Origin: Podarcis pityusensis
Taxonomy: Eukaryota
Assembly (NCBI GenBank): GCA_964106645.2
Contig: OZ067050.1
DNA: 64,000 nucleotides
Reading direction: 5' to 3' (one strand)
Below, one piece after another: positions 1 through 57,000 of this stretch. Made by a program: the position numbers. The number at the start of each line of letters is the position of its first letter. Position 1 is the first letter of the stretch.

Positions 1-3000
1 TTTTAATAAAGTTGCGGCCAAAATTTGCCTATTAACATTTAAACTAAATTCTGTCTCCACTGTGTCTTTATTTCCATGGGGGAATGGGTTTGGGGGCTCG
101 AAGCACAAACAGAAAATCAGAAGTCCTTTTATTTTAAATCTTTTTTCCTATTTCTTCATCTTCTTCTATCCTTTTTATTTTTTGCTTTTCCTTCGGTGTG
201 TTCTCTCTGTTATTGTTTTGATTTAGATTAGTTTGTCCCATCTTATTACTGGGATCCTGTTACCGAATCAGAATGTTTACAGCTAATTAAAACACTCAAG
301 AATGGCAAAGCTCCCGGTGAGGATATGATTCCTCCTGAGGTGTTTAAACTAAATGCCCAGTGGTGGGCTGCTATTTTGGCCCAACTTTTTACGGTAATAA
401 ATGATATATGCAAAATCCCAGAAAACTGGAAACTGAGCCTGGTAGCCCCCATCTATAAGAAGGGAGACCCCCAAGACCCCTCAAACTATCGCCCCATAAG
501 TCTCCTGGACATTGTGTATAAACTTTATACTCGCTACCTGCTAAATAAACTGATTGACTGGGCTGACCACTCTAACCTGCTTAATCCGGAACAGGCAGGG
601 TTTAGAAAGGGCCATAGTACAACAGGCCATTGTTTGGTACTACAGACAATGATAGATAAGTATACAAAGGTACATAAGAGCAAACTTTTTGTGGCTTTTG
701 TAGATCTCACATCCGCTTTTGATTCAATCTGTAGGGATAAATTATGGCAAAAACTATATGAAACAGATATTGATAGACGACTTCTCAAAATACTTAGAGA
801 GTTACATTCAGACACCACAGTTAAAATCAGAACTGGGATGTCAGGCAACTATACTGACCCACTGCCACTGGGGAAAGGGGTTAAACAGGGCTGTTTGTTA
901 GCACCGTTCCTCTTTAATTTCTATATAAATGACATTGTTCAACATATGGCAAAGTATAAGTCATCAGCTCCTGCCCTGGAAGGCAAACACCTGAATATAT
1001 TACTATATGCTGATGACATGGCTGTCATGGCACTTACTCGAAGGGGCCTACATAGCATGCTGGAGGGGCTCGCAGCTTATTGTTCCCAAAACTCTCTAAA
1101 GATAAATTATGACAAAACAAAAATTGTGGTATTTACTAGAGCTCGCCACACATTTAGATGGTCTTTAGATGAACACAAAATTGAACAGTGTCTTTTTTTT
1201 AAATATCTTGGTATCACTTTCCAAGCTACATCTAGCTGGCTTGCCCACTTCAAGACTGTAGCCCTTCTAACACGTAGGACAATCGGTGCTCTGCTCAGCT
1301 TTTTTTATTCGAGGGGAGGGCAACTGGTGATCCCGGCACTAAAAGCTTTTGTTGGAAAAGTGATTCCCCAGATGCTATATGGAGTAGAACTCTGGGGATG
1401 GAATCAGAAGCTGTTAGAATGGCTTGAAATCTTCCAAAATTTTTACCTCAGAAGAATTCTAGGCCTCCCTCAGAGTACTCCGGCAGCTCTCCTAAGAGTG
1501 GAAGTAGGATTACCTTCTGTGTCTGCCAGGGCCCACTTAAGATTCCTGCGTTTTTTCACCAACCTCACAGATGCCCCGAACACCTTATTGGCTAAACAAG
1601 CCTTTGTATCATTACAAAATAATACTACTTGGCATAAAAACCTACTAGATATCCTATCCAGATACAATCTACCTGAGTTTAATACCCTCAAATTGTGGAG
1701 CCCTGATAAAGTTCGGGAATGGATCTTTGAAAAAGACGCCTTTTTGGACTCCACAAAGATAAAAAACTCTGGGTTTTCCTACTGGTTTCCCCGAGTAAAA
1801 GCAGTCAAAATCTGTGCCAACTACTTGGTGGAGATCACTGATCCCACCCTTCGGAGAGCTTTTACTATGGCACGGTTTCAAACACTGCCAACTGCATATC
1901 TGACCGGTAGATTCACAAAAACCCCAGTAGAACATCGTTTATGCCCTTGCCTTATGAAAATTAAAGAGGATCTTACACATTACCTCCTCTATTGCCCCAT
2001 CTACTCGGGCTTTAGAGACGCATTGCTGCAAATTATACCCAACTCTATAACCAATCCTGAAGATAGAGTAAAATTTTTGTTAGTCGATGCAAACCCACGT
2101 ATTACCCATGTGGTAGCGGTTTTTGTGATGAAGGCCATGAAAGCCAGGGAAAGATTTATGGATGACAATGTAAAGACCCATTCATCGTCTGTTTAACTCG
2201 TTGCTTGTTTTCCCTCTCTTTCTATTTTGTGGGATGAAGGTTTTGTTGGCGTAGTATGTAATGAATTTTAATATTTTTTAACTATTGTTGTGTTGATGTT
2301 TGTGTACAGGCATGGTCCTCACAATAAACGGATTTGATTGATTATTTAAAAAACTTTAATAGAATCATATTAAAGACAAAAAGGGAGGAAAGACAGTAGA
2401 TGGTAGATTTCATATGAATTCAGTTAAAAAAATCAAATGTACAAAAGAAAATGTTAATAATAATAATAATAATAATAATAAATTATTTATATCCCACGCA
2501 CTCTGGGTGGTTTCCAACAAAATATTAAAATTGCAATAAAACATCAGGCATTAAAAACTTCCCTTAACAGGGCTGCCTTCAGAAATCTTTTAAAGTCAGT
2601 TGTTTATTTGCTTGACATCTGATGGGAGGGCTTTCCACAGAAGTATAACTTTTGCAAGAAAATTGTGATGAAATCTTTTTTTATTACCTGCCAAGGCTGT
2701 AGATCTCGAAGTTTTAATCTTTCAATGCTCCTCATTACTCTCTGCTTGGATCCAGACAAGTAAATGGCATGCAAAGCATGAGCCACCACATAAACAGCAT
2801 TGTAGATACTGTAACTATGGCCAGATAGCTCCATTTCAAACAGAGACCTTGGAAGACTGTCCAGGCTCTCCTCTCCAGTACACACATCATTGGTGTTCAT
2901 TGGTGCATCAGGATTTGGAAGTATACAGTCAAATGCTTGCTCCCAGAAGACTTTGAAGAATCCTTCTGCCTGTGTCCAAGACGGGTTTATTCTCTGAAGA

Positions 3001-54000: not shown

Positions 54001-57000
54001 ATTCCTAGATTTCAAACCTGGTTAAAACCTTTGTTCCATATAATCAGGTCCTCATGAATGATGAATTCTTTTCTATTGGGAGCATAGGGATCCACCCATC
54101 CAACCTTCACTCGAAGGAAGGACTTGTTTGGGAAGGTGAGCATGTTTGTGATGTCAAATCCACTTCCCATTTCTCTTCTATTAGTAAAGAACACTGTTTC
54201 TCCAGCTGAGTTGTTAAATGAAATGTCAGGAAGAAAATGGTGCAGCTAATTGAAAAGAAAAATGAAGGGGAGAGAACATAATGTAGGTATTGAGCAAAAT
54301 GCCATGATTTACAAAGACCTTTCTTTATGAGCATTAATTATGGAGCTTCACTTTACATAGACCAAGTATAAAAAAATCACCTGTTTTGACACAGCAGATG
54401 GGGACTTCTGGGGAAGGAAGATGGCAGACTGAATGTCTCCTTATATACCTATATATGTTATCTTAAATACTTTTCTACTTATAGACTTATATATGTGTGT
54501 TACCTTATACACTTAACTATTATTTTCATTTTCACCATTCTCCTCTGCAATATCTGTACTGCAGAGGATTGTAAATTTAGTTTGTGTGTAGAAAACAAAA
54601 AATATGAAGTAAAAAAATATGAAACAAAAAGGAAATGTGATACAGAGGAATGTTAAGGGCATGAAAGATTCTTACTATGGAACCTCGAACAGGATTTGTG
54701 CTGGTGTTCCTTGAAGAAAACTTTGTAGAAAACGTAATAAATATGAGTAACACTGCCACCGATGATGAGGTCACGTGGCTGGTACCACTCATGTGGAACA
54801 GGAACAGGATCATTCACACGGCACGTCATAGTAGTAGAGGTTTCTTTGTCAGCCAGTGATAATTTCCAAAAGATGTGTAAACTACTTTCTAGCTTTAAGA
54901 AGTAAATTAATCTAAGACATTTGTGTTAGGAGATTGGGAAAATATTGGCTAACATAAAGTAGATCAGGTGGATGTCATCCTTGGGTGAATATTTTGAATA
55001 ATTTCTATTATGTAAGAGACAGAAAATCTTTTATTATTTTGTTCTATTTTTAGTGTTCCTTTGGTGTTTTGTTTTCTTCTCTCTCTCAAAATTAGCTTAT
55101 TTCATCCTATTTTATTATTAAAAAACTTTAACAAAACCGTATCAAAGATAAAACAAAAATATTAAAGATGAAATAAAATCTTGTTAAAAAATGACCAATA
55201 CTGCTGTAGCATGACTTCTGCATTTGAACTGTTATGAAATGTTAAGTTATACCTATAGTTTCAATGAAATAATCATATTTTTCTTGGTCTTCGTTTCTAG
55301 AATATTACCTGCCAAGGCTGCAGATTTTGAAGTTTTAATTTTCCATGGCTTCCCTTTGTTCTCTGCTTTGATGTAGACAAATGAATGGCATGCAAAGTGT
55401 GAGCCACAATATAAACAGCATTGTAGATACTGTAACTATGGCCAGATATTTCCATTGCAAACAGAGACCTTGGAAGACTGTCCAAGCTCTCCTCCCCAGT
55501 ACACACTTCATTGGTGTTCATTGGCGCATCAAGATTTGGAAATATACAGTCAAATGCTTGCTCCCAGAAGACTTTGAAGAAACCTCTCTGGGTCCAGGAA
55601 GGGTTTACGCTTTGAAGAAATTCCTTGAATACTAGAAGATTTTGTGAATGAATTGTTAAGGATATGGCACCTTGGAAGAGCTGAAAATCCAGAAACCTAC
55701 AGATTCCTGCTAATATGAAATCAGTCTGGGCTGTCAAGATCCACACCTTTTTGAATCCTGTGTTTTCCTTATTGGTTGGGTCTCGCAAAAATATAATAAG
55801 TCTCAGGGCTAAAATTGTCAGGGATTCTCCATAGACAATATATGTAGTAACTTTATTATCTGTGAATGGCATATATATATTAACGGCTACATCATCCATC
55901 TCATCCAGGTTATCAAGATGAGCTTTATTTAGGATTCTTTGTGTAAAGGCTGAACAAATTCCATTTTGAGAGAGCAATGGTTGGAATTTATTGATGAAAT
56001 ATTCTCCACTGTTATCATTAGGAACAAAGAGCCCAACCCATGTCCAACCAAAATGCTTAAGCAAACTGATAATCCCTGTGTACTGGTGGGCTTCATTGGG
56101 CACCATGCGATAAAAGGATGGGAATTGAGTCTCCTCTGGAGGAAAGGAACCATATGCCAGCTAAAAGAAATTGTAAAGATGTTATGCAGTAATGTTGAAA
56201 TAGTTATCTAACCTTCACTTAAAATAGCATTCTGATTTGCATTTTGACTAGATCGGTCTCACATGCCTAGGTAGCGATAAAGGGACACCTGACTGTTAAG
56301 TCTTGTCACGGACGACTCTTGGGTTGCAGCACTCATCTTGCTTTACTGGCCGAGGGAGCTGGCGTACAGCTTTCGGGTCATGTGGACAGCATCAGTAAAC
56401 CGCTTCTGGCAAACCAGAGCAGCGCACGGAAACGTTGTTTACCTTCCCGCCGGAGCGGTTCCTATTTATCTACTTGCAGTTTGATGTGCTTTCGAACTGC
56501 TAGGTTGGCAGGAGCAGGGACCAATCAATGGGAGCTTACCCCATCACAGAAATTTGAACCGCCAACCTTCTGATTGGCAAGCCCTAGGCTCTGTGGTTTA
56601 GACCACAGGGCCACACGCGTCCCAGAAGGGGGACGCACATGCCTAGGAAATAACAAAGAAAAGGGGAAGGTGGAATAAAGATTTAGTGTTGGATCAAACT
56701 AAAACTTATTCAGTGAAGACCCATTGAAATAGATCATTAATATTAATAGGTCTGCTTTGAGTAAAATTGCAGAGTAAATATTACCTGATGGATCTACTCT
56801 GAGTAGAACAAGCCTTGGATACAACCTATAGAGGATGGAAGAATAAAAAACCCCATCAACCCTACACATAGCTTACTTGTGGAATCTTGTAGAGATCTAA
56901 TATGTCTACCATATGGAAGGAAGTATCAGAGCCAAGTCCCCCAATGATGGATATGGGGGTTTTCTGTGTGTCACATTTGTAATTGGGAATGAATCTCCCC

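What the first reader, a model, noticed from the sequence alone, without database searches (positions are those of the whole stretch)
2688..56160. Patchwork (four-gamete) recombination inside the ligand-binding exon 3 of V2R paralogs A, C, E, F
Seen: adjacent blocks of exon 3 group the paralogs incompatibly. The N-terminal block (EAHQYxGIISLLKHFGWTW..KFQPLL) groups A,C,F against E. The middle block groups A,C (MYDVxLxMNAxF..ALRGLVFLQD..ETI) against E,F (MDDVAVNIYMPF..ALRLIIFLRD..ENTG). The next block groups A,E (WTQ-A/T-EGFF, NTNDVC) against C,F, which share a one-codon deletion (WTQ-S/R-GFF) and NTNEVC. No single duplication tree explains this. Inference: repeated gene conversion or unequal crossover is shuffling segments of the Venus-flytrap domain and could generate new ligand specificities combinatorially.
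[Added by the scan's program, not by the reader: the finding's places include an assembly gap (unread letters, written N; its length is only estimated) at 8455 to 8594. Whether the letters on both sides are continuous or in frame is not known: test that first.]
Basis: partly seen in the sequence, partly recalled or inferred. Interest (0 to 1): 0.65.

Follow-up and report, generated by a model that had tools for sequence, protein, structure and literature searches.

The report
Recombinant mosaic exons in V2R paralogs
Neighbouring copies of a vomeronasal-type (V2R) receptor gene have swapped short stretches of DNA with one another, so different parts of the same exon tell different family histories; this is real but a familiar way for smell-receptor gene clusters to evolve.

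Summary
The window holds a minus-strand tandem array of class C GPCR (V2R-like) genes.

The mosaic is far beyond chance:
- PHI p<=1e-4, and no simulated alignment without recombination reached p<=0.002 (0 of 300).
- Segment trees conflict: (A,C,F)E, then (A,C)(E,F), then (A,C,E)F.
- Separate topologies beat the best common topology by 24.0 logL; the parametric null reached at most 8.4 in 150 runs.
- Synonymous distances switch in the same way, so convergent selection is not the cause.

The best explanation is repeated ectopic gene conversion. Two short, two-sided tracts stand out (E/F nt ~255-432; C/F/A nt ~551-678). One or more longer, crossover-like junctions are superimposed.

Three limits apply:
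- The 7TM exon is equally mosaic, so the process is not aimed at the ligand-binding domain.
- The positions equivalent to CaSR's amino-acid contacts do not vary among the four copies, so the "new specificities" idea is untested.
- Assembly chimerism cannot be excluded without reads.

The assembly gap lies in a retroelement-like stretch beside copy B. It touches none of the four exons, but it puts A on a different contig from C, E and F. This is a known kind of process.

The parts
2688..3551 (-). Copy A, exon 3 (864 nt, open frame, ANF_receptor). Lies on the contig left of the gap.
22503..23363 (-). Copy C, exon 3 (861 nt, open frame, ANF_receptor). Has the one-codon gap at alignment nt 584-586.
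44094..44957 (-). Copy E, exon 3 (864 nt, open frame, ANF_receptor).
55309..56160 (-). Copy F, exon 3 (852 nt, open frame, ANF_receptor). Has a 9-nt in-frame gap at nt 31-39 and the same one-codon gap as C.
44718..44957 (-). E, exon-3 nt 1-240: the divergent 5' block. E is 14-16% from A, C and F, which are 5-8% from each other. The same grouping continues upstream into the 3' part of exon 2.
44526..44703 (-). E, exon-3 nt 255-432 (outer limits nt 244-491, window 44467-44714): two-sided tract shared with F. E-F differ at 2-4 of 100 nt here against 10-18 of 100 on either side.
55738..55915 (-). F, exon-3 nt 255-432 (outer limits window 55679-55926): the partner of the E tract.
22689..22813 (-). 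C, exon-3 nt 551-678: short patch where C matches F (14 F-like sites against 1 A-like). It includes the shared codon gap and the derived states at nt 558 and 587.
55495..55619 (-). F, exon-3 nt 551-678: the partner of the C patch.
2874..3001 (-). A, exon-3 nt 551-678: A carries 9 private changes here, so A differs from C at 10-14 of 100 nt. Possibly a tract from a paralog not in the window.
55309..55404 (-). F, exon-3 nt 769-864: strongly divergent 3' end. F differs from A, C and E at 20-23 of 100 nt, against 5-10 among A, C and E. This is a branch-length break without a topology change.
30620..31483 (-). Copy D, exon 3 (864 nt, open), used as outgroup (about 21-22% from A, C, E and F).
8845..9710 (-). 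Copy B, exon 3, used as outgroup (about 32% from the others). Its 3' end diverges and has no GT donor.
8455..8594 (.). Assembly gap (140 N), flanked on both sides by + strand open frames with no Pfam match. Outside all compared exons.
16816..17739 (-). Copy C, last exon (7tm_3). Together with the last exons of D (25920-26900), E (39921-40844), F (51886-52812) and G (61654-62580) it shows the same kind of mosaic.

Best explanation
The window is a tandem array of V2R-like class C receptor genes, and their paralogs have repeatedly exchanged sequence by non-allelic homologous recombination. Within exon 3 at least two short tracts are bounded on both sides, which is the signature of ectopic gene conversion. 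One is shared by E and F (nt ~255-432, at most 244-491). The other involves C, F and A (nt ~551-678) and carries a shared one-codon deletion.

These sit on a larger switch. From exon 2 to exon-3 nt ~240 the copies group (A,C,F) against E. From nt ~480 into intron 3 they group (A,C,E) against F. That switch may be a long conversion tract or an unequal-crossover hybrid junction.

The tracts differ in age (E-F tract dS about 0.13; A/C-E 3' part about 0.08-0.09; A/C-F 5' part about 0.15-0.22; background about 0.3-0.5), so several events are needed. Shown: the incongruence, its location, and its presence at synonymous sites. Inferred: the mechanism, the direction of transfer, and any effect on ligand binding.
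For: Family identity, exon by exon: ANF_receptor in exons 2 and 3, NCD3G in exon 5, 7tm_3 in the last exon. The nearest solved relatives are CaSR (E 1e-24), then mGluR and T1R.

Rank switches of pairwise distance are seen.

Permutation tests:
- PHI for A, C, E, F: 40 informative sites, p=1e-4. With D added: 64 sites, p=1e-4.
- The minimum number of recombination events by the four-gamete test is 7.
- Two-breakpoint MaxChi reaches p<=0.02 for 6 of 6 pairs, uncorrected; E-F has p=0.001.
- Triplet max-descent tests: 11 of 24 pass Bonferroni 0.002. Examples: E is F-like at nt 255-491 (35 sites against 3); C is F-like at nt 551-678 (14 against 1).

Tree-based tests:
- Segment ML trees: nt 1-250 (A,C,F) 87% bootstrap; nt 251-500 (A,C) 100% and (E,F) 98%; nt 501-866 (A,C,E) 97%.
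- AU tests: nt 251-500 rejects both pectinate trees (p 0.018 and 0.005). nt 501-866 rejects (ACF)E and (AC)(EF) (p 8e-5 and 0.006).
- The grid search prefers 4 segments with breaks at nt 240, 432 and 768. AICc falls from 6775.3 to 6670.5.
- With equal branch-length freedom, separate topologies gain 24.0 logL over the best common one. 0 of 150 parametric-bootstrap replicates under a common topology reach that (mean 2.3, max 8.4).
- 0 of 300 simulations without recombination give PHI p<=0.002.

Synonymous signal:
- dS for E-F is 0.487, 0.128, 0.181 along the three segments. For A-F it is 0.152, 0.382, 0.238. For A-E it is 0.374, 0.380, 0.093.
- PHI on 18 third-position sites gives p=3.5e-4; on 11 fully synonymous sites, p=0.037.

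Against a copy-paste artefact: the shared tracts are not identical. The longest identical runs are 53 nt for E-F and 70 nt for C-F.
Against: - No reads, so assembly or polishing chimeras involving paralogs outside the window cannot be excluded. A lies across an assembly gap from C, E and F.
- The segment limits for searches were chosen. The bootstrap is conditional on breakpoints fitted to the data.
- For nt 1-250 the rival trees are only borderline rejected (AU 0.054, KH 0.045).
- For nt 501-700 the A+E grouping is not significantly better than A+C or (AE)(CF) (AU 0.051 and 0.072). nt 701-866 discriminates nothing.
- With B included, PHI weakens to p=0.016.
- The strict identical-run test is significant at 0.05 for only 2 of 6 pairs.
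- The bare fraction of incompatible site pairs (268 of 780) is reached by 11 of 300 simulations. The evidence is the clustering, not the count.
- The shared codon gap lies where D reads an AGAGAGA run, so recurrent slippage is possible.
- No donor, direction or non-reciprocity can be shown from one genome.
Confidence: 0.8

Rival explanations
1. Assembly or polishing artefact. The mosaics are consensus chimeras of near-identical paralogs (collapsed copies, graph path switches, or short-read polishing with mis-mapped reads), not real haplotypes.
For: The window contains an assembly gap beside copy B, so this cluster was hard to assemble. The copies are 85-95% identical, with stretches of near identity where paths could switch; for example A, C and E differ at 0-2 of 100 nt around nt 676-800. 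Large V2R families offer many unsampled donors.
Against: - Swapping blocks among the four copies cannot restore one tree, because the shape of the tree differs between blocks: 3 close + 1 far, then 2 + 2, then 3 + 1 with a different odd one out.
- The shared tracts are diverged, not identical. E-F show 11 differences in 250 nt and dS 0.128, with a longest identical run of 53 nt. That fits old exchange better than a copy-paste artefact.
- The block groupings continue into copy-specific flanking intron and exon 2.
Confidence: 0.1
2. No exchange. One duplication tree, with region-specific rates and convergent or parallel amino-acid changes driven by selection on the binding domain.
For: Chemoreceptor binding domains are often under diversifying selection (general knowledge). 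The count of incompatible site pairs alone is not extreme (11 of 300 simulations reach it). The codon deletion could be recurrent slippage in an AGAGA context.
Against: - Synonymous distances and third-position sites show the same switches.
- Giving every segment its own branch lengths on one topology still loses 24.0 logL, beyond all 150 null replicates.
- dN/dS between the groups is 0.17-0.86, with no excess of replacement changes in the blocks.
- The pattern extends into introns.
Confidence: 0.03
3. Mainly unequal crossover. The blocks are junctions of hybrid genes made when misaligned tandem copies crossed over, with little or no gene conversion.
For: - The 5' half (exon 1, exon 2, exon-3 nt 1-240) and the 3' half (nt ~480 onward, intron 3) follow different groupings that continue into the flanks.
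- The introns of C and E align collinearly over most of the 3' half, whereas F aligns only around exons.
- A and C are 5.3% apart in exon 2 but 24.8% apart in exon 1. This is a one-sided junction of the kind crossovers or duplication breakpoints make.
Against: The E/F tract (about 180-250 nt) and the nt 551-678 patch (about 130 nt) are bounded on both sides by sequence with other affinities. A single crossover cannot produce that; each would need two closely spaced crossovers.
Confidence: 0.07

Closest known systems
Interlocus gene conversion and recombination among tandem olfactory and vomeronasal receptor genes (OR, V1R)
   Same: Tandem arrays of closely related chemoreceptor paralogs, rich in retroelements, with mosaic coding sequences. 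[quoted passage not shown] V1R cases in Mus are described in PMC2644715 (passages read).
   Different: Those genes have single coding exons of class A type. Here the tracts lie inside one exon of a six-exon class C gene, and further junctions fall between exons.
GENECONV-detected conversion among fish OlfC (V2R-like) subfamily 9 genes
   Same: The same receptor family in the broad sense, and the same inferred process. It was detected statistically among recent paralogs (PMC6588630, passages read; its Supplementary Data 4 with the events could not be opened).
   Different: There it was read as homogenising (concerted evolution) and used to exclude genes from selection tests. Here the tracts leave each copy with a unique combination of blocks. 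The organism here is not determined.
Squamate, amphibian and mammalian V2R expansions by tandem duplication
   Same: Clusters of V2R paralogs that group together in gene trees (Komodo dragon preprint 10.1101/551978, passages read). For squamate V2Rs, gene conversion was raised only as a possibility still to be examined with GENECONV-type analysis (PMC3590772, passages read).
   Different: Those studies built whole-gene trees and did not test within-gene incongruence. This window shows that such trees would average over conflicting histories.
CaSR Venus-flytrap module (solved structures 5K5S, 7DD5)
   Same: Exon 3 aligns to CaSR residues about 166-440 (E 1e-24). This is the stretch that holds the contacts A168 and S170, named as LB1, and Y218, E297 and A298, of which E297 is named as LB2, in PMC4977154 (passages read).
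   Different: About 30% identity only. CaSR S170 aligns to Phe and Y218 to Ser in all of A, C, E and F. A CaSR-like amino-acid site is therefore not conserved, and these positions are not what the blocks shuffle.

Membership tests
V2R / OlfC-type class C GPCR genes | Extracellular ANF_receptor (Venus-flytrap) domain | tested here: met
   PF01094 in exon 3 of all six copies (E 1e-19 to 1e-22) and in exon 2 of A (E 7e-10). Searched exon by exon.
V2R / OlfC-type class C GPCR genes | Cysteine-rich NCD3G linker | tested here: met
   PF07562 in the exon-5 frames of C, E and F (E 8e-16 to 3e-14).
V2R / OlfC-type class C GPCR genes | 7tm_3 transmembrane domain in one last exon | tested here: met
   PF00003 over the full model length in C, E and F (E 1e-83 to 1e-87).
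V2R / OlfC-type class C GPCR genes | Multi-copy tandem array, as opposed to the single-copy CaSR, GPRC6A and T1R genes | tested here: met
   Six exon-3 copies and five last exons on one strand in 64 kb. That only V2R/OlfC genes form such arrays is established knowledge, not a call.
V2R / OlfC-type class C GPCR genes | Placement inside the V2R clade in a phylogeny with reference V2R, CaSR and T1R sequences; expression in the vomeronasal organ | not testable with these tools
No expression data.
Ectopic (interlocus) gene conversion | Adjacent segments of paralogs support conflicting trees beyond chance | tested here: met
Ectopic (interlocus) gene conversion | Short tract bounded on both sides by sequence with the original affinity | tested here: met
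   E/F tract at nt ~255-432 and patch at nt ~551-678.
Ectopic (interlocus) gene conversion | Signal present at synonymous or non-coding sites, so not due to selection | tested here: met
   dS by segment, third-position and synonymous PHI, flanking intron groupings.
Ectopic (interlocus) gene conversion | Non-reciprocal transfer with an identifiable donor and direction | not testable with these tools
   Needs orthologous arrays or population data. Only polarity hints exist: C and F share derived states at nt 558 and 587 and the codon gap, relative to D and B.
Ectopic (interlocus) gene conversion | The mosaic is real in the genome (read-level support) | not testable with these tools
   No reads available.
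Unequal-crossover hybrid genes | One-sided switch of affinity that continues through the flanks | tested here: inconclusive
   The 5' and 3' halves follow different groupings that extend into the flanks. Long conversion tracts or duplication breakpoints would look the same.

The most novel reading that the evidence does not exclude
Short-tract exchange among V2R paralogs is not just noise or homogenisation. It would be a selected, diversifying generator: each copy keeps a unique combination of Venus-flytrap blocks. This would be analogous to micro-conversion in MHC, KIR or immunoglobulin V segments (a comparison from general knowledge, not from a call), so that receptor specificities are assembled combinatorially.
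Probability: 0.1. Interest if true: 0.6.

Novelty: new member of a known kind. Interest (0 to 1): 0.3.

Why it matters
It is a clean, statistically strong example showing that whole-gene trees of V2R paralogs average over conflicting histories. Duplication dating, orthology calls and positive-selection scans on such clusters should therefore be done per segment, or after screening for recombination. Biologically it adds little. Exchange between tandem chemoreceptor paralogs is well documented, and here it affects the transmembrane exon as much as the binding domain.

Tried and rejected
- Structure mapping: an AlphaFold2 model of exon 3 alone, with the six-paralog alignment, gave mean pLDDT 35.2 and pTM 0.23. 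It was unusable, so no fold search was run. Blocks were placed only through the sequence alignment to CaSR.
- Gap flanks against Pfam at E<=1: no family for either flank. An earlier hit list for the frame at 7622-8167 held only sub-threshold coiled-coil-like matches. Calling the flanks LINE ORF1-like is therefore my impression, not a result.
- Strict identical-run (GENECONV-like) test: weak for old tracts. It was significant at 0.05 for A-F (0.005) and E-F (0.005), and not for C-F (0.068), A-E (0.088), A-C (0.29) or C-E (0.70).
- D as donor of E's divergent 5' block: only a short D-like stretch at nt 89-129 (9 sites against 1, p=0.006, uncorrected for 7 tests). Not pursued.
- The search 'Vmn2r' plus 'gene conversion' found 4 papers, none about V2R conversion judging by title and abstract.
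- PMC9018814 holds none of the terms I sought on exon structure.
- Convergent selection was rejected as the cause.
- A as a falsely scaffolded allele of C was rejected. Exon 1 differs by 24.8%, and A's upstream region matches F's (82.7%) rather than C's.

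
Full report
**What the window is.**
Stop-to-stop frames show six long exon-3-like frames and five 7TM frames, all on the minus strand. Searched exon by exon, exons 2 and 3 match ANF_receptor, exon 5 matches NCD3G and the last exon matches 7tm_3. 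The nearest solved relatives of exon 3 are CaSR (E 1e-24), then mGluRs and T1Rs.

A tandem array of at least seven class C receptor genes in 64 kb is what V2R/OlfC genes look like; that step is general knowledge. I call the copies A to G, from low to high coordinate. I do not take the contig for human: it carries several V2R-like copies whose individual exons are all open, together with long open reverse-transcriptase frames. The organism was not determined.

Every search and test was done on single exons, so intactness of whole genes is not claimed beyond "each exon found is open".

**The gap, tested first.**
The only N run is 8455-8594. It lies 250 nt from copy B's exon 3 (8845-9710). It is kilobases from the compared exons: A 2688-3551, C 22503-23363, E 44094-44957, F 55309-56160.

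Open + strand frames run into the gap from both sides, but with 140 N as written they are offset by one base. Neither flank matches a Pfam family at E<=1. Continuity and frame across the gap therefore cannot be decided, and I did not try to infer the missing letters.

There are two consequences. The four exon sequences are unaffected. But A sits on a different contig from C, E and F, so A's place in the array rests on scaffolding.

**The observation.**
Aligned with flanks, exon 3 runs from an AG acceptor to a CAG|GTAAT donor in A, C, D, E and F; B loses similarity just before the donor.

Among A, C, E and F there are 40 parsimony-informative sites: 32 AC|EF, 6 AE|CF and 2 AF|CE. They are strongly ordered:
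- 29 of the AC|EF sites form an unbroken run at nt 255-491.
- 4 of the 6 AE|CF sites form a run at nt 558-666, around the one-codon gap that C and F share at nt 584-586.

| Pair | nt 1-250 | nt 251-500 | nt 501-866 |
|---|---|---|---|
| E-F | 16.2% | 4.4% | 11.4% |
| A-F | 7.9% | 16.0% | 12.7% |
| A-E | 14.4% | 17.2% | 5.5% |
| A-C | 5.2% | 4.0% | 6.4% |

At finer scale C-F falls to 2-3 differences per 100 nt around nt 551-700, where A-C rises to 10-14. F then diverges from everything (20-23 per 100) at the 3' end.

**More than chance?**
Permutation tests on site order:
- PHI for A, C, E, F is 0.078 against a permuted mean of 0.344 (p=1e-4). With D added, p=1e-4. With B as well, p=0.016.
- The four-gamete minimum is 7 events.
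- Two-breakpoint MaxChi is below 0.02 for 6 of 6 pairs, uncorrected; E-F gives 0.001.
- Triplet tests pass a Bonferroni limit of 0.002 in 11 of 24 cases. E is F-like at nt 255-491 (35 sites against 3). F is A-like at nt 1-243 (26 against 6). C is F-like at nt 551-678 (14 against 1).
- Run tests give p=3e-5 for the AC|EF run and p=0.006 for the AE|CF run.

Tree-based tests:
- Segment ML trees are (A,C,F)E, then (A,C)(E,F), then (A,C,E)F, with 87-100% bootstrap. AU tests reject the foreign trees in the middle and 3' segments (p 0.018 to 8e-5) and only borderline in the 5' segment (0.054). Those segment limits were chosen after looking at the data.
- I therefore also ran a grid search in the manner of GARD. 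Four segments with breaks at nt 240, 432 and 768 lower AICc from 6775.3 to 6670.5.
- With each segment given its own branch lengths, allowing separate topologies gains 24.0 logL over the best common topology.
- In a parametric bootstrap under that common topology, 0 of 150 replicates reach 24.0 (mean 2.3, max 8.4). This test is conditional on the fitted breakpoints.
- In 300 alignments simulated on the single best tree, PHI p<=0.05 occurred in 3.7% and p<=0.002 in none. The bare fraction of incompatible pairs reached the observed 268 of 780 in 11 of 300. The evidence is the spatial clustering, not the number of conflicts.

**Selection or exchange?**
They do not.

| Pair | dS, codons 1-83 | dS, codons 84-160 | dS, codons 161-288 |
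|---|---|---|---|
| E-F | 0.487 | 0.128 | 0.181 |
| A-F | 0.152 | 0.382 | 0.238 |
| A-E | 0.374 | 0.380 | 0.093 |

PHI on 18 third-position sites gives p=3.5e-4, and on 11 fully synonymous sites p=0.037. dN/dS between groups is 0.17-0.86, with no block showing an excess of replacements. Convergence is therefore not the explanation.

**Anatomy and mechanism.**
The groupings continue outside the exon. The 3' part of exon 2 and what aligns of intron 2 group A, C and F against E. Intron 3 groups C (and A, up to an inserted element) with E against F.

Between these two backgrounds lie two short tracts bounded on both sides:
- the E/F tract, 180-250 nt;
- the nt 551-678 patch, about 130 nt.

Two-sided short tracts are what gene conversion makes. 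A single unequal crossover cannot make them. The larger 5'/3' switch could be a long tract or a hybrid-gene junction.

Of the 14 sites where C sides with F against A, 9 are changes private to A. At nt 558, nt 587 and the codon gap, C and F share the derived state relative to D and B. So there is a C-F exchange, and probably also a separate event in A from a donor not in the window.

The codon gap alone is weak evidence, because D reads an AGAGAGA run there and slippage could recur.

The different dS values of the tracts imply several events of different age.

**Not specific to the binding domain.**
- The last (7TM) exon of C, D, E, F and G is as mosaic as exon 3. PHI is p<=1e-4 on 61 informative sites. 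For example, C-E differs at 9-14 per 150 nt early in the exon, 35 at nt 451-600 and 5 at the end.
- A and C are 5.3% apart in exon 2 but 24.8% apart in exon 1.
- Through the CaSR alignment, the L-Trp contacts A168, S170 and Y218 fall on G4, F6 and S54 of exon 3. E297/A298 falls on K141/V142, or on A147/Q148 if aligned by eye. The contacts are named in PMC4977154 (passages read).
- All of these positions are identical in A, C, E and F.

The blocks do change many residues. The middle block differs at about 16 residues between A/C and E/F, by my count. Whether that alters ligand choice is untested. A structural model of exon 3 alone failed (pLDDT 35).

**Artefact?**
I cannot test reads. Three points argue against a simple chimera:
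- Permuting blocks among the four copies cannot give one tree, because the tree shape itself changes between blocks.
- The shared tracts are diverged, including at synonymous sites. They are not identical, as a polishing or path-switch artefact would leave them.
- The groupings continue into copy-specific flanks.

Chimeras with paralogs outside the window remain possible.

**Comparison with what is known.**
- A review of chemoreceptor evolution lists mosaic receptors made by gene conversion and recombination as a general principle for ORs, and says such principles also seem to apply to V1R and V2R (PMC1995454, passages).
- Conversion is described for mouse V1Rs (PMC2644715, passages).
- It was detected with GENECONV among catfish OlfC genes (PMC6588630, passages). 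The supplementary list of those events could not be opened.
- For squamate V2Rs it was mentioned only as something still to examine (PMC3590772, passages).
- The searches turned up no paper that maps within-exon mosaics in tetrapod V2Rs. These searches cover open-access text only, so this is not a claim of absence.

I file this as a new, well-supported instance of a known process.

**What stayed unchecked.**
So there are no orthologues, no further paralogs, no donor search and no organism assignment.

Noticed in passing
window 6840-9710: Copy B looks truncated. Its exon 3 loses similarity just before the donor (about 8845), and no exons 4-6 follow. Instead come + strand open frames of unknown family that contain the gap. 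Then comes sequence like the region just downstream of other copies' last exons: 6254-6718 is 96.3% identical to 61135-61597 below copy G. Either B is a pseudogene cut by an insertion or deletion, or sequence is missing in the gap.
   Followed up: partly
window 232-2337: A long open reverse-transcriptase frame (654 aa, RVT_1, E 5e-36) sits inside intron 3 of copy A. A's intron resumes on the other side, with 1-247 matching C 21824-22125. Another RVT_1 fragment lies at 59676-60209, between F and G.
   Followed up: partly
window 36693-36953 (+), 37909-38188 (-), 54656-54925 (-): There are extra exon-1-like pieces. One is an intact-looking inverted copy between D and E. One is a frame-shifted copy close to B's exon 1. 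One is a degenerate copy inside intron 3 of F.
   Followed up: no
window 12657-14416 and 37683-39434: A 1.8-kb direct repeat, 91.2% identical, links the region upstream of B with the region downstream of E. The duplication units of the array therefore do not coincide with gene units.
   Followed up: no
window 4003/23815 (between exon 1 and exon 2 of A and C): The similarity between A and C (92.5% over 1.7 kb) ends here. Exon 2 differs by 5.3% but exon 1 by 24.8%, while A's exon 1 and upstream region resemble F's (7.5%; 82.7% over 1.2 kb). This is another recombination or duplication junction.
   Followed up: partly
window 16816-17739, 25920-26900, 39921-40844, 51886-52812, 61654-62580: The 7TM exons of C, D, E, F and G are themselves mosaic (PHI p<=1e-4). 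For example, D and G become close (6-7 differences per 150 nt) only in the last third.
   Followed up: partly
window 56122-56130 region (F exon 3, alignment nt 31-39): F lacks three codens in frame near the start of exon 3, where the other copies read SDR, SYT or NDA.
   Followed up: no
exon 3 residues 6 and 54 of A, C, D, E, F: The positions aligned to CaSR's ligand contacts S170 and Y218 are Phe and Ser (contacts from PMC4977154). These receptors probably do not hold a free amino acid the way CaSR does. This is an inference only.
   Followed up: no
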